A stretch of 64,000 nt of DNA from positions 3,168,001 to 3,232,000 of the forward strand of contig OZ251997.1 of assembly GCA_965247095.1 (NCBI GenBank). The letters run 5' to 3'. Source of the DNA: Candidatus Multivorans sp. (GTDB lineage Bacteria > Acidobacteriota > Thermoanaerobaculia > Multivoradales > Multivoraceae). Of the stretch, positions 4,751 through 54,115 are shown piece by piece. The position numbers and the translations under genes are program-made. The notes under the pieces are model-generated. The model was not told where the DNA came from and searched no databases. It saw nothing but the letters and a program-made list of their open reading frames with translations. Every line of letters begins with the position of its first letter. The stretch's first letter is position 1.

Positions 4751-5104
4751 CTTCCGCTCCAAGAAGGAGGAGCGGAGACACCCAAGGGGCAGTCCGGGGG
4801 AACCTGGGCGGTCCAGCCGGGACGGCCTTACCCACGAGTCGGCAAGGGCCGGCGAGCGTAGCACTCTCCGCGGCCTGATGGGAGACCTGGAGAGCCGGAA
4901 TTTGTTGCGCGCCGCTTCGCGGCCGTGGCCCAGACGCAGGCCAGAAGGCCCGCGCAACGGCCGGCGCAGGCAGGGATGCGCCTTCGGCGCCCTAGGAGTC
5001 GAGTCGCGGCGTCCGCGCCGCGCTGACGCACAGGAACATGGCTTGTTCCATGCAAGTACCCACAGCGGTATCGCTGCGCTGTCGCGCAGGGAACGACGCG
5101 GCGT

Positions 5105-5136
5105 CCGGATGCGGGCAGGATGCCCGCGTTCCCAGG
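5105..5136 (+). repeat. REP-like family A, short form (single hairpin)
   Basis: CCGGATGCGGGCAGGATGCCCGCGTTCCCAGG; reverse complement is identical to 32851-32882. Confidence 0.85.
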
Positions 5137-11248: not shown

Positions 11249-11254
11249 TAGTTA

Positions 11255-13010: not shown

Positions 13011-13013
13011 TAG

Positions 13014-14816
13014 CTAGCTGCCGGGAGAGATCCAGATCGGCGACGACCAGGCGCGCTCCTGGATCGTCGCCGGCAGGGATACGCGCGGCGAAACTCCGGC
13101 TTTCACGGCATCCCACATCGACCAGCGGCACGTCGGGTTCTCCAGGACGCGAACGTAGTAGAACGCGAGATGCTCGGGGTCGAAGCCGGGATCGCTCCAG
13201 GTCGCTCCCAGCTCGACGTCGCCCACGTCCTGGCTGATGGCGCAGTTGGACAGGTCGACGGAGGCACCGTTGTCCGGACATCGGTGGGTCCCGGGATCCG
13301 GCTGCAGCCCATCGGAGCAGGCGACGTCGAAGATTTGCTCGTGCTGATCGCCGCCTTGGACCCAGCCCTTGACGATCTGGAGACGCTGGAGCGGGGCGCC
13401 GGACGGGTCGCGCAGCGCGCGGACCGCGAATGTAGGACTGCCGCCTCGATCGGCGTCGATCTCGCCTCCCATGGAGACGCCGCGCTCGTAGCCCACCGCC
13501 GCCATGTCGTCACGGCGGTGAAGGTCATCGGGCAGGCCGTAGCCGGCGAACATCTGCACCCGGATGCGAGTGCCCGAGGTGGCGAAGGTCTCCTTGCGAC
13601 GCAGAGCCTCGTAGAGGGCCTTCCGGGTGTTCTCCTCGGCCCAGACACCGGTGAGGCCCGAGTTGCTGTAGTAGCGGCGGAAGACCTCGCGATACGTCGG
13701 CACGCCATCGACGACGTCGGCCGGGACCGAGCCTCTGCTGACCGGGTCGAAGTCGTGCACGCCGACCTTGCCGGTGTGCTTCTCCTCGTCGAACTGAAAA
13801 CCCGAGTTGTGGGTGTCGCTGGCGCCGACGAACCCCAACCGATACGGGTTGAAGCCCTCTTGGCTCTGAAACGCGATGCCGTCCAGCAGCGCCTGGCGGA
13901 CGTAGCTGCCCCTGGGTCGGCTCTTGCCCCACTGGCCGACGCGAAAGGGGAAGATCTCGAAGTCGGCCCACTCGTCGTTGGGCGACAGAAAGGGATGGGT
14001 CTCGGAGGTGCCCTTGACTTGCGTAATCTCGACGAGCGGCTCGTTGCGCATCCGTTTCGTCGCGTAGTCGGCGTCGAGCGGGCCGCCGTCGAACGTCTCG
14101 GTCTGGAACATCCAGCCGTCCGAGCCGTTGGAGTTGTGCGGGATCGCCAGTGCCTCGATGCCCTGGTCACGCAGGCGATCCATCCAGCTCCAAAGGTCTT
14201 CGGGATTCACCGAATCGAGTCGGCTGAAAGGTTCCTGGGGCGCGACGCTGCCCCTGAAGATCACGTTCCGGTGCAGGTTGCCGCCGTCCCGCGCGGGGGT
14301 GTACTCGTAGCCGATGAAGGTCGTCAGGGTGCCCGGCCGGTAGTGGCGCTCCGCGGCGGCGACGATCTCCTGCCACGCCGTCCGGAACACTTCGGGATCT
14401 GCGTGCCGGGCAACGAACTCCGCGGCGCCCGGCAGGTAGCCTCCTCGCGCCTTGACCGTCGTCGCGTCGACGAAGCGCTTGACGTCGGGGTCGTCCGCGA
14501 GCGGGTGGCTGGGGTCGGCGAGGGCGCGCATGACCCCCAGGTACGCCGCGTGGTCCGTCACGGCGTAGAAGTCGAGGGCCCGGTCGAGCTGGATCTCGTG
14601 GCCCGAGGGATGCCTGATCGCCTCTCCAGCAGCGAAACGGTACGCGTCGCCGGGTGTCGTCCGCGTGGCGAACGAGAAGGCATCGAACGAGTAGGCGGTG
14701 TGCACGTGCAGGTCGCCGAAGAACGCCGAGCGCTCCTGCCCTCCGGCAGGTGAGAGCGGTGCCGCCGCCTGGAGAATCCCCAGGATCGCCGGGAGAAGGA
14801 GTCGAGAAGGTCGCAT
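13014..14816 (-). CDS. DUF3604 family secreted PHP-like protein
   Basis: Signal peptide, FFGDLHVHTAYSFDA, AVTDHA, NLHRNVIFR, IPHNSNGS, SDTHN, YYVRVLENPTCRWS, IQERAWSSPIW. Confidence 0.88.
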   Translation of the reverse strand: MRPSRLLLPAILGILQAAAPLSPAGGQERSAFFGDLHVHTAYSFDAFSFATRTTPGDAYRFAAGEAIRHPSGHEIQLDRALDFYAVTDHAAYLGVMRALADPSHPLADDPDVKRFVDATTVKARGGYLPGAAEFVARHADPEVFRTAWQEIVAAAERHYRPGTLTTFIGYEYTPARDGGNLHRNVIFRGSVAPQEPFSRLDSVNPEDLWSWMDRLRDQGIEALAIPHNSNGSDGWMFQTETFDGGPLDADYATKRMRNEPLVEITQVKGTSETHPFLSPNDEWADFEIFPFRVGQWGKSRPRGSYVRQALLDGIAFQSQEGFNPYRLGFVGASDTHNSGFQFDEEKHTGKVGVHDFDPVSRGSVPADVVDGVPTYREVFRRYYSNSGLTGVWAEENTRKALYEALRRKETFATSGTRIRVQMFAGYGLPDDLHRRDDMAAVGYERGVSMGGEIDADRGGSPTFAVRALRDPSGAPLQRLQIVKGWVQGGDQHEQIFDVACSDGLQPDPGTHRCPDNGASVDLSNCAISQDVGDVELGATWSDPGFDPEHLAFYYVRVLENPTCRWSMWDAVKAGVSPRVSLPATIQERAWSSPIWISPGS

Positions 14817-22579: not shown

Positions 22580-22625
22580 TTGACAGCGTTGAGGGCAGTT
22601 CTTACGATTGCTGTCATTGACAGCA
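22580..22625 (+). promoter_or_regulatory. Sigma-70 promoter with palindromic operator of the FitA-like/VapC operon
   Basis: TTGACA(22580)-N17-TACGAT(22603), followed by perfect inverted repeat TGCTGTCA-T-TGACAGCA (22609-22625). Confidence 0.75.
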
Positions 22626-22660
22626 CCACCATGAAGGCTCGAAGAGAAGGAGTCGCCGTC

Positions 22661-22897
22661 ATGCCGCAACTGACCGTTCGCAACGTACCCGCGCAGGTGG
22701 TCGCCGCACTCAAGACCCAGGCAGCCGCGAGCGGCCGGTCTGCGGAGGCCGAACATAGGGACATTCTCCATCGCGCCCTCCTGGCTGACGGCAGCGACTT
22801 CGCCGCCCGCGCCGCAGCGATGCGACGACGCGTCCGCTCAACCGTCGACAGCACCGACACGATTCGGGAGGAACGCGACCGGGACAGCGGCCTGTGA
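22661..22897 (+). CDS. FitA-like ribbon-helix-helix antitoxin
   Basis: MPQLTVRNVPAQVVAALKTQAAASGRSAEAEHRDIL; AAGGAG RBS. Confidence 0.88.
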   Translation: MPQLTVRNVPAQVVAALKTQAAASGRSAEAEHRDILHRALLADGSDFAARAAAMRRRVRSTVDSTDTIREERDRDSGL

Positions 22898-23328
22898 AGG
22901 GCTGCGTCGTCGATGCCAGCGTCGCCGTGAAGTGGCTCGTGGACGAGAAGCACTCCAAAGAAGCATCGAGCCTGCTCGCCGCCGGCACGACGCTGCTGGC
23001 GCCGGAGCTGCTGTTCGCCGAAGCGACGAACGCCCCCTGGGCCATGTGCCGCCGCGGCGACATCGACCGCGACGCCTTGGCGGACGCCGTCGCTCTGTTG
23101 CGGAGAGCCCCTGTGGCGACGCCGGTGCCCATGCGCCAACTCGCTAGCGCTGCCGCGCGACTAAGCGTCGATCTGGACCACCCGACCTACGACTGCTTCT
23201 ACCTCGCCCTCGCGCTTCACGAACAGCATCCCGTCGTCACCGCGGACTCGCGCTTCCTCAAGAAGGTGCAGGATCATCCCTACCTGACCGACGCGATCCG
23301 GCACGTGGCGGAAGTCGGCCGGAGTTGA
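22894..23328 (+). CDS. vapC: PIN domain toxin (VapC family)
   Basis: VVDASVAVKWLVDE, E..N, YDCFYLALA, VTAD; GTGA overlap with the antitoxin. Confidence 0.9.
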   Translation: MKGCVVDASVAVKWLVDEKHSKEASSLLAAGTTLLAPELLFAEATNAPWAMCRRGDIDRDALADAVALLRRAPVATPVPMRQLASAAARLSVDLDHPTYDCFYLALALHEQHPVVTADSRFLKKVQDHPYLTDAIRHVAEVGRS

Positions 23329-23373
23329 CGCCGAAGACGCTTGAACGCCGCCGCAAAGCACGGCCCTAGAGGC

Positions 23374-23507
23374 TTGCGCGGCAGAACGATCCGACCTGGG
23401 AACCCGGGTGGCGCGATCCGCGCCACCCGCGAACCACTCCGTGCGCCCGTCATCGGGCGGACGGAGGGCACGCGGGCATCCCGCCCGCATCCGGCGCGAA
23501 GCGCCGG
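23374..23507 (-). repeat. REP-like family A, long form with flanking extensions (core 23395-23494)
   Basis: Reverse complement aligns with 28015-28148. Confidence 0.9.
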
Positions 23508-23635
23508 CCTCCGGTAGTTCTGCCGCGCCAGAGCACATACTTGTAGCGCACTCCGAGATAACTTGACTACTTCGGAGCACACTCCAAATCGGGCGAGCTT
23601 GACGGTGTCGATATCGAGGACCAGTCTGGAGCCTA

Positions 23636-24854
23636 GTGCCGTGTCACTCGTCCTAGGTCGCATGAATCGTAGTAGGTTCCTTGCCGTTCGACGACGGCAA
23701 GGAGTCTGGCATGAAGCGGTATGTGGTGGAGTTGGAGGAGCAGGAGCGCGAGGCGTTGGCGACGACTACGCGCAAGGGTTCGCATCGGTCGCAGAAGGTG
23801 ATCAACGCCTTGATTCTGCTCAACTGCGACGAGGGCGAGTTCAACGGGCGTCGGACGACCGGCGAGACGATCGCCGGGGTCTTGCGGATCAGTGCGCGCA
23901 AGGTGGATCGTGTGAAGAGGCGGTTTGTGGAGGACGGTCTGGAGGCGGCGCTCGGGAGTCGGCAGGGGCGTCGTCCCAAGTACCTGCGCAAGGCGGATGG
24001 CGAGTTCGAGGCGCGGCTGATCGCGCTCAGTTGCGGAGAGCCGCCCGAAGGGCATTCGCAGTGGTCTCTGCGTCTGTTGGCGGACCGTGCGGTGGAGCTC
24101 GGCTATATCGACAGCGTCTCGCACGAGACGGTGCGGCGGGTGCTAAAAAAAACGCTCTCAAACCGTGGCGCCGCGTCGGCTGGGTGATTCCGCCGCAATG
24201 CAACGCCGACTTCGCGGCGAACATGGAGCGGGTGCTCGACGTCTATCGGCGTCCGCACGACGCGAACTTCCCGGTGGTGTGCATGGACGAGACGCCGCGG
24301 CAGTTGATCGCCGAGACACGCGCGCCCATCCCGCCGGCCCCTGGACGGGAGGTCCGCGAAGACTACGAGTACCGACGCTGCGGCGCCTGCAACGTGTTCA
24401 TGGCGACCGAACCGCTGGCCGGGCGGCGTCTGACCAAGGTCACCGAGCGCAGGACCAAGACCGACTGGGCGCGTTTCCTGGAAGACATCGCCGGGCAGTA
24501 TCCCGACGCCACCCGAATCACGCTGGTGATGGACAACCTCAACACGCACCGCCCCGGCGCGCTCTACGAGACCTTCGACCCGGCCAGGGCCAAGGCGCTG
24601 TGGGACCGCTTCGAGTTCGTCTATACCCCCAAGCACGGCAGTTGGCTGAACGTCGCCGAGGTCGAACTCAGCGTGATGATCCGCCAGTGCCTCAACCGCC
24701 GCATCGACTCCATCGACACCCTACGCGCCGAAGTCGGCGCCTGGCAGGCCGCCAGAGACCGGATCCAAGCCAAGGTCAACTGGCACTTCACCACCGACGA
24801 CGCTCGCGTCAAACTCAAGCGCCTCTATCCGACTTTTGACGAGTGACACGGCAC
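23636..24854 (+). mobile_element. IS630 family insertion sequence
   Basis: Perfect 17-bp inverted repeats GTGCCGTGTCACTCGTC, TA duplication within CTAG, two overlapping ORFs with an A8 slippery run at 24145-24152. Confidence 0.95.
23711..24846 (+). CDS. IS630 transposase expressed via -1 frameshift (HTH ORF 23711-24187 plus DDE ORF to 24846)
   Basis: WSLRLLAD..VSHETVRRVLKK then KNALKPW..VVCMDE..MDNLNTH..YTPKHGSWLNVAEVE. Confidence 0.92.
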
Positions 24855-24878
24855 TAGTCTGTTTGAGAGGGCGAACCG

Positions 24879-25139
24879 ATGGACAACGTGTGGCAGGTGC
24901 AGGATGCGAAGGCGCGCTTCAGCGAGTTCCTGGAGACGAGCGTGGCCGAAGGACCGCAGATCGTCACGAAACGCGGCGTGCCGACCGCTGTCCTGGCGCC
25001 CATCGAACAGTGGCGCAGGCTGTCGAGCGCGTCGAAGCCCGACCTCAAGGAACTACTCCTGGCGCGCGAACCGAGGACCGAGGAACTGGCCCTGCCGCGT
25101 CGCCAGTTCCGCTATCGCGACGCGCCTCGATTCGAATAG
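24879..25139 (+). CDS. Phd/YefM family antitoxin
   Basis: WQVQDAKARFSEFLETSVAEGPQIVTKRGVPTAVL. Confidence 0.9.
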   Translation: MDNVWQVQDAKARFSEFLETSVAEGPQIVTKRGVPTAVLAPIEQWRRLSSASKPDLKELLLAREPRTEELALPRRQFRYRDAPRFE

Positions 25140-25142
25140 GGG

Positions 25143-25556
25143 ATGTACCTGCTCGACACGAACGTCGTCTCGGAGTTGCGACGCAGCCGGCCGCATCCTG
25201 CGGTTCTGGAGTGGATCCGGAACGTCCCGTCGGAACGACTCCATCTGTCTGCGGTGACCGTGGGTGAGGTTCAGGGGGGAATCGAGAAGACTCGGGCGCA
25301 CGACTCTGCGAAGGCCCGCATGCTGGAGGTGTGGCTCGATCAGGTCATGACGGCGTACCCGATCCTGGCTCTGGACGGCGTGATCTTCCGGGAGTTGGGA
25401 AGGCTGAAGCACCGTCAGTCGGTTGCCTTGTCCCAGGATGCGATGATCGCTGCTGTCGCGAGGATTCACGGTCTCACCGTCGTCACGCGCAACGCCCGCG
25501 ACTTCGAGCAGTTCGGCGTAGAGATACTCGATCCGTTCGCTACGCCGGCATCTTGA
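25143..25556 (+). CDS. vapC: PIN domain toxin (VapC family)
   Basis: YLLDTNVVSE, SAVTVGE, DAMIAAVA..VVTRNARDF. Confidence 0.92.
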   Translation: MYLLDTNVVSELRRSRPHPAVLEWIRNVPSERLHLSAVTVGEVQGGIEKTRAHDSAKARMLEVWLDQVMTAYPILALDGVIFRELGRLKHRQSVALSQDAMIAAVARIHGLTVVTRNARDFEQFGVEILDPFATPAS

Positions 25557-25596
25557 TCTTCGCCTGCACGAGCGGCGCGTGACGCCGGTGTTGTTG

Positions 25597-25680
25597 GCGA
25601 CGGTCAGTCCGTGTCCAGAAGGCGAGGTCCCGGAGGAACCCGGAAGAGAAGACGGCCTCCCGAGGCCGCACTTCCGTCAC
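25597..25680 (-). pseudogene. yoeB: Truncated Txe/YoeB family toxin (first ~28 codons)
   Basis: GTGA overlap with the yefM stop; MTEVRPREAVFSSGFLRDLAFWTRTDRR then similarity ends. Confidence 0.7.
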
Positions 25681-25961
25681 TCTTCCGTGAGCCCGAACCG
25701 CGCACGAAGCTCCTCGACCGTCATCACCACGCCCTTCCCGGCTCGGATCTCCTCATCGGCTTGCCGAATCCTCTCGGCGTTCTTCGGCGAGCGAAGGAGG
25801 TACTCCGTTTCCATCCAAGCGCTCAGCTCGCTCGCCGCGATGAGAGCGACGTCCTCCTTGCCACGCCGTCTTATGTACACCGGCTCCCGCGTGTCCGTCA
25901 CCTGATCCATCAGCGTGGCGAGGTTCTGGCGCGCGCCGGTGTAGGTGGTTTCTCTGATCAT
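25677..25961 (-). CDS. yefM: YefM/Phd family antitoxin
   Basis: TYTGARQNLATLMDQV..EPVYIRRRG..ETEYLLRSPKNAERI. Confidence 0.9.
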   Translation of the reverse strand: MIRETTYTGARQNLATLMDQVTDTREPVYIRRRGKEDVALIAASELSAWMETEYLLRSPKNAERIRQADEEIRAGKGVVMTVEELRARFGLTEE

Positions 25962-26160
25962 GTGGTTGCTCCGACCTTGCCCTCGGAACGCGCGAATCCT
26001 GCTCGTGTCCGGGCAGTGTTTCGGGGACGACCGCCGCGGATCTCGGCGAGACGTACATGGATTCTGTACCGCTACGGCCGCCCGCGCAAGCGGGCCGCAG
26101 CGCCTCACTGCGGGCAGCCGGCGGAGAAGCCGGCGCATCCAGTGGTTGCCGTCGGCGGCA

Positions 26161-28014: not shown

Positions 28015-28148
28015 CCGGCGCTTCGCGCCGGATGCGGGCAGGATGCCCGCGTGCCATCCGTGCGCCCGATGACGGGCGCACGGAGTGGTTCGCGGGTGCC
28101 GCGGATCGCGCCACCCGGGTTCCCAGGTCAGATCGTTCTACCGGGCAA
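28015..28148 (+). repeat. REP-like family A, long form with flanking extensions (core 28028-28127)
   Basis: Three hairpins GCGGGCA-GGA-TGCCCGC, CCGTGCGCCCG-ATGA-CGGGCGCACGG, GGTGCCGCG-GAT-CGCGCCACC; ends TTCCCAGG. Confidence 0.9.
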
Positions 28149-31256: not shown

Positions 31257-32942
31257 TTAGTGGACGTGACCCTCGGCCTCGCCGCTCGCCATCAGGGACG
31301 AGCGGCGAATGGCGTCGCCGCCGCGGGTCACCAGGCGCTGGCCCGGCGCCAGGCGCTCGACGCGCGCCCGGTCTCCCTGCCGCTCGAGCACGGTCACCCT
31401 CTGGCGCCCGAAGCTCTCCCCGGAGAGCTGCAGGAACACGACCGGCACGCCGCCGTCGTCGACCAGGGCCGACTCCGGAACGACGATGCCGGTCTCCTCG
31501 TCGGCGAGGAGGATCTGCGCCGCGACAGTCGATCCCAGTGCGAAGCCGGCGCCGCCAGGGCCAGGGACCTGCAGCAAGACGGTGACGGTACCTGTCCGCG
31601 GCGAGACTTCCGGCGCGACCGAGACGAGGGAGAGCCCCTCCTCGACTCTCACCGGCTCGCTCTCCGGATCCTCGAGCACAAGGCCCCGCACACCCGAGGC
31701 CGCGAGCCGCCGCGCTCCCTGCGGCGGCAACGCGACCTCGATCCACACCACGTCGGTTCGGACCAGGCGGGCAAGGGAGTCGCCGGCGGCCACCGTCGCG
31801 CCGGGTGTCGTGTTGACCGCGGCTATCCGGCCGGAAAACGGAGCCCTCAGGGAGATGCCGGCGCCGTCCGCTCCACCCTCGCGCGAGGAACGGGCCGACT
31901 CGAGGTCTCGCTCTGCCGCCCGGTGTCGGGCCTCAAGGGTCAGGACCCGAACCCGAGCCTCCTCCAGCTCGCGCCCACTCGTCGCTTCGAGAGCCAGGAG
32001 TTCCTCCAGGCGCGACCGTCGTGCCAGGGCACTCTCCAGCTCCGTCGCCAGTGTCTCGAGTTCCGCTTCGAGGGTCGCCAGGCTCCTCTCGGGCGCGACC
32101 AGGGGAACCACCCGGAAGAGGGGAGAGTCCCGCGCCACGCGGCGGCCGACGAACGGCCAGGAGGGAGATCCCTCTGGTGGCTGCACGACGCCGTCAACCT
32201 GTGCGGTCACCGTGCTCTCGCCACCCGCCGGTGGACGGAAGGTCGCCAGACCGGCCACGCTCTCGGCCAACCGACCTTCCTCGACCCAGGCGGTCGCGAA
32301 GGAACTCTGCCACTGCTGCTCCTTGAGGAAGGAGATGGGCTCGCCCCCGTCGGACCCGGCCGGGGGCGAGGATGCGTCCAGGAGCCCGCCCGGCTCTTCA
32401 GCCGGTCCGATGTGGACCCGGCCACCGCGGATCTCCTCCGTGCCTTCCGCATCGTGGATGCGGAAGAGAAGATCGGCCTCGCCGGCCTGCCGCGGCGTCA
32501 CCTCGATGTCGAAGATCCCGGGCCGGAGCACCTGGTCCGCGCCGAAGACCTGCTCGCCGGAAGCGTCCACGAGCACGATCTCCACCCGGCCGTCCACCAC
32601 CGGCGTGAAGTCGGCCAGACGGGTGACATGGGTGTGGGCCTCGGCTGTCTGGCCCGCCACCAGAGCGTCGACCTCGGGGAAGACCTCGAAGCGTTCGCCC
32701 CAGGCCGTGACGGCCCAGGTTTCGTGCGAGTGGTCCGGCGGCTCGGCGGGCGGAGCGGCACCGCAGGCGAGCAGGACGAGCGCGGGGAGCGCGCCGACCC
32801 AACTCCGCCGCGAGCGGGCGCAGCACGGGTCAGGCACACGGCGCTCCGATCCTGGGAACGCGGGCATCCTGCCCGCATCCGGAGCAGTTCGGCTCCGGGC
32901 CTGCTCGCACATCTTCGTCATCGGCGTTCCACTCCACGTCAT
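31257..32942 (-). CDS. RND efflux periplasmic adaptor (membrane fusion protein), lipoprotein
   Basis: LLAC lipobox, ISFLKEQQW, LRAPFSGRI, VPESALVD, C-terminal GHVH; ATGA coupling to tolC-like gene. Confidence 0.9.
   Translation of the reverse strand: MTWSGTPMTKMCEQARSRTAPDAGRMPAFPGSERRVPDPCCARSRRSWVGALPALVLLACGAAPPAEPPDHSHETWAVTAWGERFEVFPEVDALVAGQTAEAHTHVTRLADFTPVVDGRVEIVLVDASGEQVFGADQVLRPGIFDIEVTPRQAGEADLLFRIHDAEGTEEIRGGRVHIGPAEEPGGLLDASSPPAGSDGGEPISFLKEQQWQSSFATAWVEEGRLAESVAGLATFRPPAGGESTVTAQVDGVVQPPEGSPSWPFVGRRVARDSPLFRVVPLVAPERSLATLEAELETLATELESALARRSRLEELLALEATSGRELEEARVRVLTLEARHRAAERDLESARSSREGGADGAGISLRAPFSGRIAAVNTTPGATVAAGDSLARLVRTDVVWIEVALPPQGARRLAASGVRGLVLEDPESEPVRVEEGLSLVSVAPEVSPRTGTVTVLLQVPGPGGAGFALGSTVAAQILLADEETGIVVPESALVDDGGVPVVFLQLSGESFGRQRVTVLERQGDRARVERLAPGQRLVTRGGDAIRRSSLMASGEAEGHVH
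32851..32882 (-). repeat. REP-like family A, short form, inside the adaptor reading frame
   Basis: CCTGGGAACGCGGGCATCCTGCCCGCATCCGG, translated as PDAGRMPAFPG. Confidence 0.85.
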
Positions 32943-34621: not shown

Positions 34622-34724
34622 AACGAGGCACTGTGACAGAAGCGCCACGTACGGTCAACGAAACCGGCGGTCGAAACGGCGATACGCTTTGCACCTTGCA
34701 CGTACTGAAACCGCTGCCTCCGAA

Positions 34725-34825
34725 CCTGGGAACCCGTGTGGCGCGACCTCGCGCCGCACGCAAACCACTCCGTGCGCCCGTCATCGGGCGCACGGATGGC
34801 ACGCGGGCATCCTGCCCGCATCCGG
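34725..34825 (-). repeat. REP-like family A, long form (101 nt)
   Basis: Same three-hairpin layout; 4-nt loop in the GGCGCG hairpin. Confidence 0.88.
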
Positions 34826-34839
34826 CCCGACGGGCCGGG

Positions 34840-37074
34840 TTGGTTAGCGCTGGCCCATCACACGCGCTGACGCCGCTGCTTCCGTTCTGCGCCGCTCTGG
34901 CCTTCTCGACCCTCGCGGCCTGCGGCGGCGAGTACCCGCCGCCGCCGGAGACGGCGCAGGTTCCCTTCGCTGAAACGATCCACGGCGTCGAGTTCGAGGA
35001 TCCATACCGCTGGCTCGACGAGCAGGACAGCCCGGCGACGCGCACCTTCATCGACCGGCAGAACGAGTACGCGGAGCAGATCCTGGGCGAGCCGGCGGAG
35101 CGCGACTGGGCGCGGCGACGGCTACGGGAGCTGATGGACATGCCGGCCATCGGCTCGCCGAACAAGGCCGGCGACTTCGAGGTCTTCACCCTCCGCCGGC
35201 CCGGCGAGGAGCTGGCCTCCATCGTGCGCCGCGAAGCCCCGGGTGATGCGGCCGACGGCGGGCCCACGAGAATCGACCCGGCGGGCGAGTACGAGGTGCT
35301 GGTCGACCCGGCCGACCTGAGCGCCGACTACACGGACATCCTCGACATCGTGTCGGTTTCGCCGGACGGGCGGCTCATGCTCTACAACGTCCGCATCGGC
35401 GGCGAGGACGAGACCACGGTCCGCCTGCGCGACCTGGAGCAGAACGTCGACCTCGACTTCGAGCTGCCGCGGGCGCTCAACGACCAGGCGTTCTTCGCCA
35501 AGGACGGCAGCGGCATCTACTACACGATCCGCGACCGCTACGAGGGATCGCGCGTGCGTTTCCACACGTTCGGCACCGACCGGGCGGACGATGCTCTCGT
35601 GTTCGGCGAGGGGATCGGGCCGCGGAGCTTCGTCCGCGCCGAGCAGCTCGACGACGCGTTGCTGCTGGTCGGGGTTCAACACGGATGGACCCGGAGCGAG
35701 CTCCATCTCGTGACGGTCGGCACCTGGGAGACGACGCCGCTCGTCACCGACCTGGATGCCCGCTTCAACACCCACAGGGCCGACGGCAGACTGTTCGTGC
35801 GCACCAACCTGGATGCGCCGCTCAACCGACTGATGGAGGTCGACCTGGAGCGGCCCGAGATCGCCAACCCGGGTGGCGCGTTGTCGCGCCACACGCGAAC
35901 CAGTCCGAGCGCCCGTCATCGGGCGCTCGGATGGCATTGGCGCGAGGTCGTGCCCGAAGCTGATGACGTGCTGCAGGGCGTCGCGGTCATCGACGACAAG
36001 CTCTACCTGACCTACCTGCACGACGTGGCGAGCCGCATCCGGGTCTTCGAGTTCGACGGCACGCCGGCCGGCGAGGTCGAGGTGCCCGAGCACCACAACG
36101 CCAGCATTCGGGCCGCTGGGAAGGGCAAGGCTCTCCTGTCCCTGGTCTCCTACCTGCAGCCGTCCGTGACCTGGCTGCTCGACCTCGAAACGGGCACGCG
36201 TGAGGTCTTCCGCGAGCCCCAGGCCCCGTTCACCGCCGACGGCTATGTGCTGAAGCAGGTGCGCTACACCTCGAAGGACGGCGCCTCCGCGCCGATGTAC
36301 CTGGTCCATCGGGAGGACTTCGAACCCGATGGAAGCACTCCCGCCCTGCTCAACGGCTACGGCGGCTTCAACGTCTCCCTGACGCCACGCTTCAATCCGC
36401 TGGCGGCTCTCTGGATCGAGGCGGGCGGCGTCTACGCGGTCGCCACGCTCCGCGGCGGAAGCGAGTACGGCGAGGAGTGGCACCAGGGCGGGATGCTCCA
36501 CAACAAGCAGAACGTCTTCGACGACTTCATCTCCGCGGCCGAATGGCTGGTCGAGTCGGGCTACACCGATCCGCAGCGCCTGGCGATCCACGGCGCCAGC
36601 AACGGCGGACTGCTCGTGGGCGCCTCCCTGACCCAGCGCCCCGACCTCTACCGCGCGGTGCTCTGCGGCTTCCCCGAACTCGACCTGATCCGCTTCTACA
36701 CCTACACCGAGGCGAACAACATGCCCGCCCTGCTCGAGTACGGCGACGGGGAGATCCCCGACCAGTTCGAGTCTCTACGCGGCTTCTCGCCCTACCAGGC
36801 GGTCAGGGACGGCGTCGCCTACCCGGCCGTCATGCTGACCCAGGGCGACCGGGACACGCGTGTGCCGCCGCTTCAGGCGCGCAAGATGGCGGCTCGCCTG
36901 CAGGCGTCGACCTCGTCGGGGCTGCCGGTGATCCTGCGCTACCACCCGTACGCCGGCCACGCGGCGAGTCGTGGATTGCCGCTGTCGCAGAGGATCGAGG
37001 CCGTCGCGGCGGAGGCGACGTTCCTGATGAGCCAGACGGGGCTCGGGGCGCCGGGCACGGGGTCAGCAGGATGA
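34840..37074 (+). CDS. Prolyl oligopeptidase (S9A) lipoprotein
   Basis: LAAC lipobox, DPYRWLD, YGGFN, RGGSEYG, GASNGG, DRDTRV, GH; start uncertain (frame open from 34633). Confidence 0.93.
35869..35937 (-). repeat. Family A 69-nt internal module inserted in frame in the prolyl oligopeptidase gene
   Basis: CCGGGTGGCGCG-TTGT-CGCGCCACACGCGAACCAGTCCGAGCGCCCG-TCAT-CGGGCGCTCGGATGGCAT matches the middle of the long repeats. Confidence 0.9.
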
Positions 37075-41307: not shown

Positions 41308-42866
41308 CGGTCCAGAACCTGTTCCCGGCACTCAAAGCTCGCCGCATCCTCGGCGCTTCCGCTACCCGAGTAGACCGCGACGAGCGGATAGCGGCAGATG
41401 GGCCTCGACCTGACGATCGCGCCCCCGCCATTCCGGCGCACGCCGTACAGCGTCTCGGGCGCGATGCCTTCCTCGACCCAGCGGACGACGGCCGCGAACG
41501 GGTTGTCGGGCGACAGGCCCGGAACGTGTCGGCAGTGCTCGACGCCGGAAGGCAGGAACAGGCGCAGGAAGTCGCCGGTCTCGCCCATGCGGTTCTCGAC
41601 GCCTTCGAACCAGTCGATCGTGCCCTGGGCGTAGATCAGCGGATCGTTCCAGCCGTGCCAGACGATCGCCTTGCCGCCGCGGTCTCGGAAGCCGGAGAGG
41701 TCGGTGCGGTCGGTGCCGAACACGCGCCCGAACTCCTCGACGGACTGATCCCAGTAGTGCTCGTAGGAGGCGTGGGTCATCCCGGTCCAGTCGAACTCGG
41801 GGTCGCGGGCGAGGAAGTAGCGAAACCAGTCGAGCGTGATGCGCAGCGGTCGGCCCATGGGGGGATCGCCGGCGGTGCCGCTGAGCGGAAGGAAGTTGGC
41901 GCCGCGCGTCAGGCCGTACCAGAGGAAGGAGCCGTCCCGCCTGCGGGGGCCTTCCAGGATCTTGCGAATGACGGCGACATCGGCCTCTGTGATCCTGCCG
42001 CAGCCTTCGGCTTCGGCGCCCAGCAGTTCCGCGGGATCGAACGGGCACTGCCGCGGCTCGGGGATCACGCCGTCGGCGACGCCGTCCTGGAGGTCGCAGG
42101 CTTCGACGGCCTTCTCCTGGGCGAGCCGGAACCGGCACGGCTGCACGAAGTGGCCACTCTCAAGCATGACGAGTTGGCCCCACATCTGCGCGAGGTGCAG
42201 CCGGTCCCAGTTGATCGCCGGTGCGCCGGAGAGCACGCCGTCGTAGTCGTCGGGGTAGCGCTGGATCTCCATCAGCCCCTGGCGGCCGCCGGTCGAGCAG
42301 CCCCGGAAGTAGGAGTACCGGGGCGCCCGGTCGTAGAAGGCCGCGGTCAGCTCCTTGCCCACCCGGGTCATCGCGTGGATGCCGAGGTAGGCGTTGTCCC
42401 GGATCAGCATCCACTCCAGGCTGCCGTCGGCGCCGAGTGCGAAGCTGCCGCTCCCGCCAGCGTGACCGGTGTCGGTGGCGGCTGCGGCGAAGCCCTCCCG
42501 GACGGCGCCCGGCAAGGGGCCCGGGCTGCCACCGGAAAAGCCACCGCCGCCGGTACCGAGGAAGCGGCCGTTCCAGCCTTCGAGGGGAAGGGCGACCCAG
42601 ATCGTTATGCGGTCGCCGGCCGGCGGGTGCCCGGCGACAACCGTTACCCGGCAGTAGGAAGGTCCGGCGTCACCTGCGGCATCCACGGTCGCGGACTCGA
42701 CGGTGGCGTCGGCGTCGGCGGTGGCGTCGGCGAGCTCCATGCCGGCCAAGCTCTCGCAGGTGCGTGCCGGTTCGACGGGGCCGTAGAGGGGCGGCGGAGC
42801 CCACTGCGCCGCCGCGGGGACGGCGAGGGCCAGGACGAGGATGGCGGTGATCAGGGAGTGCTTCAG
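41304..42866 (-). CDS. Tannase/feruloyl esterase family hydrolase
   Basis: WNGRF, TDTGH, GCSTGGRQG, YPDDYDG, WHGWND, GVEHC, RPICRYP; frame extends upstream to a signal peptide starting at CTG 42866. Confidence 0.92.
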   Translation of the reverse strand: MKHSLITAILVLALAVPAAAQWAPPPLYGPVEPARTCESLAGMELADATADADATVESATVDAAGDAGPSYCRVTVVAGHPPAGDRITIWVALPLEGWNGRFLGTGGGGFSGGSPGPLPGAVREGFAAAATDTGHAGGSGSFALGADGSLEWMLIRDNAYLGIHAMTRVGKELTAAFYDRAPRYSYFRGCSTGGRQGLMEIQRYPDDYDGVLSGAPAINWDRLHLAQMWGQLVMLESGHFVQPCRFRLAQEKAVEACDLQDGVADGVIPEPRQCPFDPAELLGAEAEGCGRITEADVAVIRKILEGPRRRDGSFLWYGLTRGANFLPLSGTAGDPPMGRPLRITLDWFRYFLARDPEFDWTGMTHASYEHYWDQSVEEFGRVFGTDRTDLSGFRDRGGKAIVWHGWNDPLIYAQGTIDWFEGVENRMGETGDFLRLFLPSGVEHCRHVPGLSPDNPFAAVVRWVEEGIAPETLYGVRRNGGGAIVRSRPICRYPLVAVYSGSGSAEDAASFECREQVLDR

Positions 42867-42896
42867 GAGTGGGTCTCCGGGGCAGCCACACGGAAG

Positions 42897-43038
42897 CCGG
42901 CGCTACGCGCCGGATGCGGGCAGGATGCCCGCGTGCCATCCGTGCGCCCCAGGACGGGCGCACGGACTGGGTCGCGAGTGGCGCGGATCGCGCCACTCGG
43001 GTTCCCAGGAGATGCGGATCGCGCCACCCGGTTGCCAG
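42897..43038 (+). repeat. REP-like family A, long form (core 42910-43009) plus partial duplicate of the last hairpin (43014-43038)
   Basis: Aligns with 28015-28127. Confidence 0.88.
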
Positions 43039-43095
43039 AAGCAGAGGGTATCGTCCGCGGCACACCGCATCTGAGTCGCCACCAGGAGACTGAAC

Positions 43096-44205: not shown

Positions 44206-44305
44206 CCCGATGCGGGCGAGACGCCCGGGTTCCATCCGTGCGCCCGGTGACGGGCGCGCGGAGTGGTTCGCGGGTGGCGCGGAGCGCGCCACCCGGGTTC
44301 CCAGG
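44206..44305 (+). repeat. REP-like family A, long form
   Basis: Aligns with the other copies; lies between convergent genes. Confidence 0.88.
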
Positions 44306-45515: not shown

Positions 45516-45716
45516 GCGGATGCGGGCAAGATGCCCGCGTGCCATCCGTGCGCCCGATGACGGGCGCGCGGAGTGGTTCACGGATGGCGCGGAACGCGCC
45601 ACCCGGGTTCCCAGGTCCAGATGCGGGCGGGACGCCCGCGTTCCATCCGCGCGCCCGATGACGGGCGCACGGACTGGTTCACGGATGGCGCGGAACGCGC
45701 CACCCGGGTTCCCAGG
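45516..45716 (+). repeat. Two tandem long-form family A repeats (45516-45615, 45617-45716)
   Basis: Two adjacent 100-nt copies. Confidence 0.9.
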
Positions 45717-53342: not shown

Positions 53343-53723
53343 CTACTCGAAGGTCCACTCCTGGGGTTCGGCGCCGTCTTCCGGCCGCGCCTCACGCACC
53401 ACAACAGGTGGCGTCTCTCCCTGCTGGTAGGTGAACACGTACTTCAGGGCTTTCCGGTTCTCTTCGGGGACCGGGTCCACGTGCGTGGCGAGTTCCGGGC
53501 CGTCAAAGACGTTGATCTTGCAGAACTCCTCCCCCCGACACAGGAACTTCCCCATCTGCACCCAGTCCTCCATCTTCGTGTCGGGCTGAATCCAGACGCC
53601 CCAGGCGAGGCCCGTCAGGCCGACCGGATTGAGGGGCGGCGGGGAATCGCCCTGCTGCTGTCCGGTGGCCGCAACGGAGAGGAAGAAGATGGTGCTGATC
53701 GTGACGAGTGCGCGTCGGTTCAT
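53343..53723 (-). CDS. Secreted hypothetical protein
   Basis: MNRRALVTISTIFFLSVAATG signal-like N-terminus; ATGA coupling to the upstream remnant. Confidence 0.65.
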   Translation of the reverse strand: MNRRALVTISTIFFLSVAATGQQQGDSPPPLNPVGLTGLAWGVWIQPDTKMEDWVQMGKFLCRGEEFCKINVFDGPELATHVDPVPEENRKALKYVFTYQQGETPPVVVREARPEDGAEPQEWTFE

Positions 53724-54115
53724 GGCAGGGTCACCTCGAAGAATCGGTCCCATAATGCCATGCGGGCTTCGTGGAGCTTGCTCCCGGCCTCGATCGTCGA
53801 TCCGAACTCGAGGTGCCGTGCCGTGTCCTGCTTGAACTCCGGCCACGCCGGCAGATCCGAGCTGCCCAGCGGGTTCGGGTCCCCGGTCGCGGCGAAGGCG
53901 ACCCAGTAGTCCGACATCGCCCGGGCGAGCTGGTGGTCGGCTTCGGCGTACTCGTAGTCCAGCTTGTCCAGGTTGGCGAAGGCCTCGCCGGCGCTCTCGG
54001 CCGAGCCGTCCTCGGACGAGCGGAGTTCAGGCAGACCGTCGAAGAAGCCGCCGCTCTGGCCGATCACGCGGTGGAGGAGGCCCCGCTGGGGCGGCCGGAA
54101 ACGAAGCTCGCCCAT
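53720..54115 (-). pseudogene. Collapsed remnant of a type B carboxylesterase
   Basis: GELRFRPPQ (N-terminal motif) joined to RGLLHRVIGQSG (middle) and MSDYWVAFAATGDPN..LPAWP (C-terminal); catalytic GESAG missing. Confidence 0.8.

What the first reader, a model, noticed from the sequence alone, without database searches (positions are those of the whole stretch)
35866..35940. 69-nt palindromic module inserted in frame in the prolyl oligopeptidase beta-propeller
Seen: ..DLERPEIAN-[[23 protein letters not shown]]-WREVVPE..; the bracketed 69 nt is exactly the segment that distinguishes long from short family A repeats, starts after AAC as in the repeats, and keeps both hairpins, one with a compensatory base-pair change. 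Removing it gives ..PEIANWREVVPE, the usual S9A pattern. The catalytic Ser, Asp and His motifs are intact. Known: in-frame palindromic insertions in proteins are described for Rickettsia RPEs and a few other taxa. Inference: an RPE-like mobile module adding new peptide loops to proteins in this lineage, apparently derived from a REP system.
Basis: partly seen in the sequence, partly recalled or inferred. Interest (0 to 1): 0.85.

Follow-up and report, generated by a model that had tools for sequence, protein, structure and literature searches.

The report
Repeat hairpin module inside peptidase gene
A 69-base, two-hairpin piece of a genome-wide repeat sits in frame inside a prolyl oligopeptidase gene of an acidobacterium, where it adds a floppy 23-residue loop; this kind of event is already known from Rickettsia and other bacteria.

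Summary
Window 35869-35937 is a 69-nt insertion in an S9A prolyl oligopeptidase gene (34840-37074, +). Of 58 database homologues, 48 lack it (46 with a clean 23-column gap). So do 9 of 10 related genome loci, which read GCC AAC TGG or a close variant.

The insert is the two-hairpin module of an interspersed repeat: 13 copies in the window, L001 and L002, none in 77 other loci. That module is also what separates the long repeats from the short ones.

The gene stays open with its Ser/Asp/His residues, and evolves under purifying selection (dN/dS 0.25). AlphaFold models the insert as the only internal low-confidence segment of an otherwise confident fold.

- Carriers do not form one group on the protein tree (at least 4 gains or losses; AU p 4e-10).
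- The insert is more conserved than the rest of the gene (0 of 66 nt differ from L001, against 8.7% elsewhere).

The wider claim, that the module decorates many proteins as RPEs do, is not supported. Only 1 of 11 independent loci is coding, and three peptide searches found no second internal insertion. No transposase was linked to the repeat.

Verdict: a new member of a known kind (intragenic REP/RPE-type insertion), in Acidobacteriota.

The parts
34840..37074 (+). S9A prolyl oligopeptidase gene, probably a lipoprotein (LAAC lipobox). The ORF is open from 34633. The start at TTG 34840 is the one used for the database protein P0002 (744 aa).
   Evidence: Pfam PF02897 E 6e-58 and PF00326 E 1e-48. 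PDB 2bkl E 7e-113. AlphaFold mean pLDDT 91.1; Foldseek to 2bkl_B with TM 0.84/0.92. dN/dS 0.25 against L001.
35869..35937 (+). The 69-nt insertion, equal to 23 codons ([23 protein letters not shown]). Because AAC is repeated at both ends in relatives, the boundaries could equally be drawn as 35866-35934.
35866..35868 (+). AAC codon at the left junction. It is the only codon at this position in 7 of the 9 empty sites.
35870..35895 (+). Hairpin H1 (arms 35870-35880 and 35885-35895, loop TTGT). It has one G.A mismatch in this copy.
35900..35934 (+). Hairpin H2 (arms 35900-35915 and 35920-35934, loop TCAT). It has an A-U pair where the family mostly has U-A.
35935..35937 (+). CAT (His). All 8 other insert-bearing relatives have Asn here, and L001 has AAC, so there the insert is flanked by AAC on both sides.
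36598..36600 (+). Catalytic Ser codon (GASNGG).
   Evidence: The catalytic role is inferred from alignment to solved POPs.
36853..36855 (+). Catalytic Asp codon (GDRDTRV).
36958..36960 (+). Catalytic His codon (AGHAA).
34731..34802 (+). Module copy (69 nt plus AAC) inside a long four-hairpin repeat (34722-34840) that abuts the start of the peptidase gene.
23401..23471 (+). Module copy in a long repeat. It is intergenic, between a PIN toxin gene and an IS630-like transposase gene.
28051..28121 (-). Module copy in a long repeat. It is intergenic, between the DUF885 and AcrB-type genes.
42933..43003 (-). Module copy in a long repeat. It is intergenic, between the tannase and Abhydrolase_3 genes, and is orthologous and identical to L001 16598-16668.
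44229..44299 (-). Module copy in a long repeat, intergenic, with AAC at both ends.
45539..45710 (-). Two tandem long repeats, each holding a module copy (45539-45609 and 45640-45710). They are intergenic.
32840..32890 (+). Short repeat without the module (CCTGGGAAC|GCGGGCATCC...).
5104..5132 (-). Short repeat without the module.

Best explanation
A two-hairpin module of a REP-like, GC-rich interspersed repeat became inserted at an AAC codon of an S9A prolyl oligopeptidase gene. The repeat belongs to this Thermoanaerobaculia lineage, whose nearest named relatives are Candidatus Multivorans (Acidobacteriota).

The site lies in the stretch that links two beta-strands of the propeller. This copy happens to be 69 nt long and open in the gene's frame, so it does not break the gene. 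It is most likely translated into a 23-residue, basic, disordered surface loop that the enzyme tolerates.

The module is a unit that moves or recombines on its own. It sits after an AAC, and is followed by AAC or CAC, in three different contexts: the short repeat, a different small hairpin in L002, and the peptidase gene.

Among close relatives the insert has been lost or gained several times. Its nucleotide sequence is kept unusually constant, which points to constraint on the hairpins (DNA or RNA) rather than on the peptide.

Shown: the insertion, its family membership, the hairpins with covariation, the junctions, the intact and selected gene, the low-confidence loop, the patchy distribution, and the conservation.

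Inferred: that it is translated, that it is roughly neutral for the enzyme, and how it is moved and removed. My best guess for removal is hairpin-stimulated slippage between the flanking AAC repeats. The alternative is a single-strand (HUH/Y1-type) transposase acting on the hairpins, which would also account for insertion.
For: Insertion and target site:
- 48 of 58 homologues lack the segment, 46 of them with a clean 23-column gap.
- 9 of 10 related loci have the empty site; 7 of those 9 read AAC there.
- Solved POPs lack 18-20 residues at this point.

Family and distribution:
- nhmmer E 4.3e-17.
- The covariance model finds 13 full copies in the window (8), L001 (3) and L002 (2), and 0 in 77 other loci.
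- All other window copies lie between Pfam-supported genes or at the 5' ends of ORFs.

Hairpins:
- z -5.45 as RNA and -7.64 as DNA.
- 96.5% of 312 cells are paired, and 3 pairs change on both sides. 0 of 500 shuffles reach the observed pairing or covariation score. Slid controls pair in 26-51% of cells.

Junctions:
- The module follows AAC in 12 of 12 aligned copies.
- It is followed by AAC in 4, CAC in 7 and CAT in 1.
- Short repeats equal long repeats minus the module.

Gene integrity:
- dN/dS is 0.25 over 695 codons against L001.
- Mean pLDDT is 91.1, and residues 343-362 of P0002 (the insert spans 344-366) are the only internal segment below 50.
- TM to 2bkl_B is 0.84/0.92.

Patchy distribution (32 rows, insert columns dropped):
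- The tree needs 7 changes, and at least 4 are forced by starred branches.
- 0% of 200 bootstrap trees need only one change.
- AU p is 4.1e-10 for the 8 near-identical carriers.
- The three partitions also reject one clade, with p 0.001-0.014.

Conservation:
- 2 of 22 insert columns vary among 9 carriers, against 236 of 666 elsewhere (Fisher p 0.011).
- 0 of 66 nt differ from L001, against 8.7% elsewhere.
- 0 synonymous differences are seen where about 3.5 are expected (p 0.02).

Single origin for the window and L001 copies:
- They share the 69-nt length, the TTGT loop, the G.A mismatch and the A-U pair.
- None of the other 10 aligned copies combines these features.
Against: - No transcript or protein data exist, so translation of the insert is inferred.
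- The conservation statistics are modest. 135 of 2090 66-nt windows of the gene (6.5%) also show no difference from L001, and 2.7% of 22-column protein windows are as conserved.
- Only one DNA pair with the insert could be compared.
- The tree is built from proteins of metagenome assemblies, which may be strain mosaics. Short-tract recombination could mimic gains and losses.
- On that tree the insert label is no more clustered than shuffled labels (97-115 of 500 shuffles need as few changes). This fits high turnover but also fits a noisy tree.
- No transposase is tied to the repeat. There is no Y1 family hit among the 222 ORFs of the window.
- I could not obtain coordinates of the model, so I cannot say which face of the propeller the loop is on, or how far it lies from the active site.
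Confidence: 0.8

Rival explanations
1. Active, site-specific single-strand element. The module is a non-autonomous element moved by an HUH/Y1 (IS200/IS605- or RAYT-like) transposase encoded elsewhere in the genome. It would insert 3' of AAC and excise precisely, so that it toggles in and out of this codon without harming the gene. This overlaps with the best explanation and concerns only the mechanism of movement.
For: - There are subterminal hairpins at both ends.
- Insertion follows the same trinucleotide in three contexts, and the 3' end is AAC or CAC.
- At least 4 gains or losses occurred at exactly the same position.
- P0012 carries a much-diverged 23-aa version at the same site, inside the otherwise insert-free clade.
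- Precise excision and target-specific insertion are the stated hallmarks of IS200/IS605 'peel and paste' transposition (abstract of PMC5027513, seen in the listing).
Against: - No Y1 transposase family hit among the 222 ORFs of 100 aa or more in the window. The rest of the genome could not be searched.
- There is no GTAG or CGTC tag at a stem foot.
- The window and L001 inserts share private features, so at least those two are one event by descent.
- Slippage between 3-nt repeats brought together by hairpins would give the same precise losses without any enzyme.
Confidence: 0.2
2. Exaptation. The 23-residue basic loop has acquired a function in the enzyme, such as substrate gating, partner binding or membrane contact, and is kept by selection on the peptide.
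For: - The peptide is nearly invariant in 9 carriers: 2 of 22 columns vary, against 35% elsewhere.
- The loop holds 4 Arg and 3 His.
Against: - Synonymous sites are equally frozen (0 differences against about 3.5 expected). This points to DNA or RNA constraint rather than peptide constraint.
- Close relatives lack the loop, including P0011, the sister of the carrier P0003 at 100/98 support. The loop is therefore dispensable.
- The loop is modelled with pLDDT below 50.
- P0012's version differs at 13 of 23 residues.
Confidence: 0.12
3. The insert is not part of the protein. Ribosomes would bypass it from AAC to AAC, as in T4 gene 60 or the yeast mitochondrial 'byp' inserts (recalled from memory, not looked up), or it would be removed from the mRNA.
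For: - Matching AAC codons flank the insert in L001, and Asn flanks it in 7 of 9 carriers.
- A strong hairpin begins at the take-off side.
Against: - The insert is a multiple of three and open in frame.
- No stop codon follows the first AAC.
- In the window the second codon is CAT, and in P0005 the first residue is Ser, so the codons do not match there.
- 5 of the 6 frames of the module are open anyway, so the open frame is weak evidence either way.
Confidence: 0.03
4. Artefact or reverse direction. Either the insert is an assembly error, or it is an old native loop of the enzyme from which the genomic repeats arose.
For: None found.
Against: - The insert is present in 9 protein clusters from separate contigs, and in two chromosomes of 4.6 and 5.06 Mb.
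- 48 of 58 homologues and all the solved POPs shown as alignments lack it.
- The same module sits in 10 other independent, non-coding places.
Confidence: 0.01

Closest known systems
Intragenic REP elements (GTAG- and CGTC-tagged palindromic repeats inside ORFs; Di Nocera et al. 2013, PMC3733652; passages read)
   Same: - Short GC-rich hairpin repeats that are mostly extragenic.
- A minority lie wholly inside genes for known proteins.
- That paper states that dimers or grouped repeats encode 20 to 30 amino acids; here two hairpins give 23.
- The authors also describe REPs nested inside small palindromic targets. That resembles the L002 copies (inside a GCCGGCG-GGAA-CGCCGGC hairpin) and the GCCA-AC-TGGC site in the peptidase gene.
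   Different: - There is no GTAG or CGTC tag at a stem foot.
- The phylum differs: this is a Thermoanaerobaculia lineage.
- No associated tyrosine transposase was seen.
- The two hairpins here are different sequences in a fixed order, not an inverted pair of one REP.
Rickettsia palindromic elements (RPEs; Ogata et al. 2002 and Claverie and Ogata 2003, cited in PMC3733652 and in the MITE review PMC10969869; passages read, original papers not read)
   Same: A palindromic repeat is inserted in frame in a housekeeping-type enzyme gene. The gene remains intact and the added peptide is predicted to be compatible with the fold.
   Different: - RPEs are about 150 bp and form families that each encode a conserved peptide. 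In R. conorii nearly half of them lie inside ORFs (PMC10969869).
- Here 1 of 11 independent loci is coding.
- Most copies here are 68 nt, which would shift the frame.
- No second decorated protein was found.
REPINs/RAYTs and IS200/IS605-derived mini-elements (PMC3116915 and PMC5027513; titles and abstracts only)
   Same: Hairpin-based, non-autonomous repeats. Movement is proposed to go through single-stranded DNA, with precise excision and insertion next to a short specific sequence.
   Different: - No transposase was identified here.
- No inverted doublet architecture is present.
- The link is by analogy only.
S9A prolyl oligopeptidases with solved structures (for example 2bkl, 3iuj, 7vgb, 1qfm)
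   Same: The same two-domain fold (TM 0.82-0.84 normalised to the query) and conserved Ser/Asp/His motifs.
   Different: None of the three shown as alignments has residues matching the insert.

Membership tests
S9A prolyl oligopeptidase | N-terminal beta-propeller domain plus C-terminal alpha/beta-hydrolase peptidase domain | tested here: met
   PF02897 at 196.9 bits (cut-off 24) and PF00326 at 166.1 bits (cut-off 22.6). Foldseek to 2bkl_B gives E 6.5e-66 and TM 0.84/0.92.
S9A prolyl oligopeptidase | Catalytic Ser (GxSxGG), Asp and His | tested here: met
   GASNGG, GDRDTRV and AGHAA align with the motifs of 2bkl and 3iuj. D672 and H707 are invariant, and S587 at least 90% conserved, in 84 sequences. 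Activity was not assayed.
REP / REPIN (RAYT-associated) | Short GC-rich imperfect palindromes, many copies, mainly extragenic | tested here: met
   8 module copies in 64 kb, 7 of them outside genes. The hairpins are supported by covariation.
REP / REPIN (RAYT-associated) | GTAG or CGTC tetranucleotide tag at one end of the stem-loop | tested here: not met
   The aligned copies have no GTAG. The only CGTC lies at the top of H2 and in its loop, not at a stem foot (read).
REP / REPIN (RAYT-associated) | A RAYT (Y1 transposase) gene flanked by the repeats | tested here: inconclusive
   0 of 222 ORFs of 100 aa or more in the window match a Y1 transposase family. The window is 64 kb of a contig of about 4.6 Mb, and the rest could not be searched.
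RPE (Rickettsia palindromic elements) | Recurrent in-frame insertion in many unrelated genes, each family encoding a conserved peptide | tested here: not met
   1 of 11 independent loci is coding. There were 0 hits in 1.84 billion representatives. Only the peptidase family appeared among proteins of 447-1423 aa. The second frame gave three peptidases and one amidase N-terminus. All three searches have limited power: the queries are short, each covers one frame, and two had length limits.
RPE (Rickettsia palindromic elements) | Sequence similarity to the described RPE families | not tested
Rfam gave no match to the repeat at gathering thresholds.
MITE | Terminal inverted repeats matching those of a parent IS | tested here: not met
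   The two ends of the module (CCGGGTGG... and ...CGGATGG) are not inverted copies of each other. The ends of the neighbouring IS630-like gene show no relation to the repeat.
MITE | Target-site duplication | tested here: inconclusive
   AAC lies on both sides in 4 of 12 aligned copies, including the peptidase copy of L001. The 3' side is CAC in 7 and CAT in 1. This could be a 3-bp duplication, or an element end that resembles its target.

The most novel reading that the evidence does not exclude
The module is a live, site-specific hairpin element that inserts 3' of AAC and excises without a scar. A coding sequence can therefore carry it as a reversible 23-residue cassette. Its hairpins would be kept by selection even inside the gene, either because the mobilising enzyme needs them or because they act on the mRNA.

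Three observations would be the footprints of that turnover:
- the repeated presence and absence among near relatives;
- the frozen synonymous sites;
- the diverged copy at the same codon in P0012. There the residue changes Arg to Gly and Arg to Pro fall on the two partners of one H2 base pair and would turn C-G into G-C. This is my inference, without DNA.
Probability: 0.15. Interest if true: 0.7.

Novelty: new member of a known kind. Interest (0 to 1): 0.4.

Why it matters
This is a very clean natural example of a repeat-derived peptide insertion. The filled and empty sites are known to the base, and the source family and the junction rule (after AAC) are known too. The host enzyme is a well-studied fold that could be assayed with and without the loop.

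It extends intragenic REP/RPE-type insertions to Acidobacteriota (class Thermoanaerobaculia). My searches found no paper on this genus and none describing such repeats in the phylum. One search found only a mention of acidobacterial tyrosine transposases in PMC3733652.

The patchy distribution and the nucleotide-level conservation offer a way to ask whether such hairpin modules remain mobile, or remain functional as nucleic acid, once they lie inside a gene. It does not by itself open a new category.

Tried and rejected
- Other decorated proteins. A phmmer search with the 31-aa peptide (window 35857-35949) against 1.84 billion representatives gave 0 hits at E up to 0.001. Power is low: the query is short and clusters at 50% identity may be represented by insert-free members.
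- Word-indexed search with residues 405-444 of P0001. It returned 9 proteins, all of this peptidase family, among 17 candidates of 447-1423 aa.
- The same kind of search with the long repeat read in another frame (P0007 residues 46-85). It returned 4 proteins among 8 candidates: three peptidases and the amidase P0122. In all four the match lies in the N-terminal extension.
- A transposase for the repeat. Pfam scans of the 222 ORFs of 100 aa or more found only an IS630-like DDE_3 gene (23563-24846). An extended motif shared by two repeat copies (GGYAGAACGATCYGACC, 2 matches) is not found at the other end of that gene.
- Known RNA families. Rfam at gathering thresholds found only the 4 tRNAs.
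- Recombination as the cause of the patchy distribution. Trees from the local 150 residues on each side, from the N-terminal part and from the C-terminal part each still reject one clade of carriers. Only very short tracts would fit.
- A control for the insert's conservation. The orthologous intergenic copy (window 42933-43003 against L001 16598-16668) is also identical. Its upstream flank is itself well conserved, however, so the control is weak.
- Placing the loop on the propeller. The structure tool returns no coordinates and none are in /data, so the face and the distance to the active site remain undetermined.
- DNA for the other carriers (P0004-P0010, P0012).
Full report
**What is at the site**

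The window holds an ORF that is open from 34633 to 37074 on the plus strand. It matches the two Pfam domains of S9A prolyl oligopeptidases, PF02897 (E 6e-58) and PF00326 (E 1e-48). It also matches solved prolyl endopeptidases, for example 2bkl at E 7e-113.

The database version of the protein (P0002, 744 aa) starts at TTG 34840 and has a lipobox, LAAC.

At 35866-35868 there is an AAC codon. It is followed by 69 nt (35869-35937) that read in frame as [23 protein letters not shown], and then by TGG CGC GAG. The Ser, Asp and His motifs downstream are intact.

**It is an insertion**

I aligned the 58 database homologues P0002-P0059.
- 9 carry the segment almost unchanged (P0002-P0010, 84-100% identical over the query region).
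- 1 (P0012) has a diverged segment of the same length, with 10 of 23 residues identical.
- 48 lack it. Of these, 46 show a clean 23-column gap and 2 (P0056, P0057) lack it but read differently downstream.

The three solved structures shown as alignments lack 18-20 residues at this point.

At the DNA level, ten close loci were fetched. They are titled Candidatus Multivorans, Thermoanaerobaculia, Holophagales, Vicinamibacteraceae or Acidobacteria MAGs (taxonomy of the genus).
- Only L001 (OZ242222.1, the source of P0003) has the insert.
- L002-L010 go straight from the preceding codon to TGG.
- The single codon at the site is AAC in 7 of those 9.

In L001 the filled site reads GCC AAC | 66 nt | AAC TGG, so the insert is flanked by AAC on both sides. 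In the window the second AAC has become CAT.

**It belongs to a repeat family**

The window holds long repeats of about 113-116 nt with four hairpins in a fixed order, and short repeats that lack the first two hairpins.
- Short copies read CCTGGGAAC|GCGGGCATCC.
- Long copies read CCTGGGAAC|68-69 nt|GCGGGCATCC.

The piece that makes the difference is the same two-hairpin module that sits in the peptidase gene.

A profile of the long repeat hits the gene copy at E 4.3e-17. A covariance model of the module finds 13 full-length copies (78-97 bits): 8 in the window, 3 in L001 and 2 in L002. It finds none in the other 77 loci, in about 1.4 Mb searched in all. The 16 weaker matches are opposite-strand or partial shadows of the same copies.

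In L002 the module sits in a third context, inside a small hairpin GCCGGCG-GGAA-CGCCGGC, again just after AAC.

Across 12 aligned copies the module follows AAC in all 12. It ends in AAC in 4, CAC in 7 and CAT in 1.

Counting L001 16598, which was not aligned because it is identical to the window copy at 42933-43003, 9 of the 11 non-peptidase copies are 68 nt and 2 are 69 nt. The peptidase copy is 69 nt. Five of the six reading frames of the module are open, so an open frame is unremarkable. A length divisible by three is the lucky part.

**The hairpins are real**

The region folds far better than shuffles:
- as RNA, -54.8 kcal/mol with z -5.45;
- as DNA, -39.2 kcal/mol with z -7.64;
- 0 of 200 shuffles fold as well in either case.

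On the 12-copy alignment:
- 96.5% of 312 cells form standard pairs;
- 3 of 26 pairs change on both sides;
- 0 of 500 shuffles reach the observed pairing or covariation score;
- sliding the partners drops pairing to 26-51%.

The gene copy has the A-U pair in H2 where 6 of 12 copies have U-A. It also has one G.A mismatch in H1.

The repeat matches no Rfam family.

**Where the other copies lie**

Pfam scans of the ORFs around each copy place all seven other window module copies, and both short copies, between recognisable genes or in the first 35 codons of over-long ORFs.

Two pairs of module copies are orthologous between the window and L001: the peptidase pair, and 42933-43003 with L001 16598-16668. 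The 13 copies therefore make 11 independent loci, of which one is coding.

**State of the gene and the protein**

Against L001, the gene outside the insert has dS 0.217 and dN 0.053, giving dN/dS 0.25 over 695 codons. It has therefore remained under purifying selection in lineages that carry the insert.

AlphaFold2 with 84 aligned sequences gives mean pLDDT 91.1 and pTM 0.90. The only internal stretch below pLDDT 50 is residues 343-362 of P0002; the insert spans 344-366. It lies between strands 330-334 and 368-371.

The model superposes on bacterial and mammalian POPs with TM 0.82-0.84 normalised to the query.

I could not get coordinates. Which face of the propeller carries the loop is therefore unknown.

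**Patchy distribution**

I built a careful maximum-likelihood tree of 32 homologues: P0002-P0030 without the partial P0006 and P0023, plus P0040, P0052, P0053, P0055 and P0058. The insert columns were removed.
- The tree needs 7 changes of the insert state, and starred branches alone force at least 4.
- 0% of 200 bootstrap trees need only one change.
- The carrier P0003 and the non-carrier P0011 are sisters at 100/98 support.
- The AU test rejects a single clade of the 8 near-identical carriers (p 4.1e-10), and of all 9 with P0012 (p 6e-85).

Quick trees from three partitions also reject a single clade.

| Partition | Changes needed | AU p |
|---|---|---|
| 150 residues on each side of the site | 6 | 0.0012 |
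| N-terminal part | 7 | 0.014 |
| C-terminal part | 7 | 0.004 |

On the full tree the label is no more clustered than shuffled labels (97-115 of 500 shuffles need as few changes).

The window and L001 inserts share the 69-nt length, the TTGT loop, the mismatch and the A-U pair. No other aligned copy combines these. All 8 near-identical carriers share the peptide that those features encode. I therefore read most of the changes as precise losses of one old insertion. Repeated insertion at a hot spot, or very short recombination tracts, are not excluded.

Two caveats apply. The proteins come from metagenome assemblies, and the root (a single long outgroup) is unsure.

**Unexpected conservation**

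Among the 9 carriers, 2 of 22 insert columns vary, against 236 of 666 elsewhere (Fisher p 0.011). Only 2.7% of 22-column windows are as conserved.

Between the window and L001:
- 0 of the 66 module bases differ, against 8.7% in the rest of the gene;
- 135 of 2090 66-nt windows (6.5%) are also free of differences;
- no synonymous difference occurs where about 3.5 are expected (p 0.02).

Differences occur 9 nt upstream of the module and immediately downstream of it. A recombination tract would therefore have to match the insert almost exactly.

This pattern fits constraint on the nucleic acid (the hairpins) better than constraint on the peptide. It rests on one DNA pair and on modest statistics.

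In P0012, two of the residue changes (Arg to Gly and Arg to Pro) fall on the two partners of one H2 base pair and would convert C-G to G-C. This is my inference and needs the DNA.

**Is it a general peptide-adding module?**

I found no evidence for that.
- The 31-aa peptide found nothing in 1.84 billion representative proteins.
- Residues 405-444 of P0001 found only 9 proteins, all this peptidase, among 17 candidates of 447-1423 aa.
- The long repeat read in another frame (from P0007) found three peptidases and one amidase, P0122. In each, the match is an N-terminal extension that is probably a gene-calling artefact.

These searches have limited power: the queries are short, each covers one frame, and two had length limits. 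A whole-genome census could not be run.

**Mechanism**

The following are shown:
- the element is modular;
- it lands after AAC;
- it keeps its hairpins;
- it can be absent without a scar.

How it moves is inferred. Two routes fit.

1. Host processes. Hairpin extrusion brings the flanking AAC repeats together, and replication slippage deletes the module exactly. This is established knowledge about palindrome-stimulated deletion, recalled and not looked up.
2. A single-strand HUH/Y1 transposase. Such enzymes recognise subterminal hairpins, insert next to a short specific sequence and excise precisely (abstract of PMC5027513; REPIN concept in the abstract of PMC3116915; both seen only in the listing).

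No such enzyme is encoded in the window. 0 of 222 ORFs of 100 aa or more match a Y1 family, and the only transposase is an IS630-like DDE_3 gene at 23563-24846.

**Comparison with what is known**

REPs lying wholly inside genes for known proteins, often as dimers encoding 20-30 residues, have been catalogued in several phyla. The same paper describes REPs nested in small palindromes (PMC3733652, passages read).

Rickettsia RPEs are the classic in-frame case. There, nearly half the elements sit inside ORFs (PMC10969869, passages read).

The present case works like these, but it is not a member of either family:
- there is no GTAG or CGTC tag;
- no RAYT was seen;
- no recurrent coding insertion was found;
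- the usual copy length is not a multiple of three.

Full-text searches found no paper naming Candidatus Multivorans. They also found none describing such repeats in Acidobacteria; one search gave only a mention of acidobacterial tyrosine transposases in PMC3733652. Supplementary file 3 of that paper, which lists intragenic REPs, is an old .xls file and I did not open it.

**Verdict**

The narrow interpretation, a repeat module inserted in frame and tolerated as a loop, is well supported. The broad interpretation, an RPE-like system that decorates proteins in this lineage, is not. The turnover and the frozen sequence of the insert are the parts worth following up.

Noticed in passing
window 34722-34840, with L001 9640-10080: A full long repeat ends 1 nt before the TTG start of the peptidase gene. 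Compared with L001, whose gene begins with a canonical MTKSLPLIG... lipoprotein signal, the window's upstream region and the first 15 or so codons are not homologous. Predicted proteins of several relatives run through a repeat copy at this 5' end. P0004, P0005 and P0008 do so in one frame, and P0007, P0013 and P0016 in another. The 5' end of this gene is therefore a second hot spot for the repeat, and the true start codon in the window is uncertain.
   Followed up: partly
L002 6846-6917 (-) and 19299-19370 (+): In this more distant genome the module is not inside the short repeat. It sits in the loop of another small hairpin (GCCGGCG GGAA CGCCGGC), again right after AAC.
   Followed up: partly
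window 42860-43090 with L001 16440-16730: This orthologous intergenic repeat cluster is identical over the module. It differs by an indel of about 75 nt that consists of one extra short-repeat unit in L001, flanked by the same GCGGGCATCCTGCCCGCATC sequence. A lone H1-like unit lies next to it at window 43000-43036.
   Followed up: partly
window 23380-23396 (+) and 28126-28142 (-): Two long repeats share a further 17-nt upstream extension, GGYAGAACGATCYGACC (2 matches; 0.03 expected by chance). At the first copy an inverted GTTCTGCC follows the repeat.
   Followed up: partly
window 22580-26140: A mobile-looking island. It holds a FitA-like antitoxin with a PIN toxin (22580-23328), an IS630-like transposase apparently split over two frames (HTH at 23681-24187; DDE_3 in 23563-24846), a second PIN gene (25143-25556) and a Phd/YefM antitoxin (25677-26138, minus strand).
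   Followed up: no
window 9697-13028: A tandem duplication of about 1.75 kb: 9707-10006 against 11459-11758 at 94% identity, and 11124-11266 against 12886-13028 at 85%. It holds two paralogous ORFs of 471 and 473 aa on the minus strand with no Pfam match at E 1e-6.
   Followed up: no
P0012 (homologue, no DNA available): This protein carries a 23-residue segment at the same codon that differs from the window's insert at 13 of 23 positions, although it sits in the otherwise insert-free clade. The changes Arg to Gly and Arg to Pro map to the two partners of one H2 base pair.
   Followed up: partly
P0122 (amidase, 526 aa): Its predicted N-terminus (about residues 8-50) is the translated long repeat. 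This is probably a gene call that starts too early, in an upstream repeat.
   Followed up: partly
window 53720-54115 (-): A short ORF matches only the last 67 positions of the carboxylesterase family profile (PF00135 positions 449-515 of 515). It may be a gene remnant.
   Followed up: no
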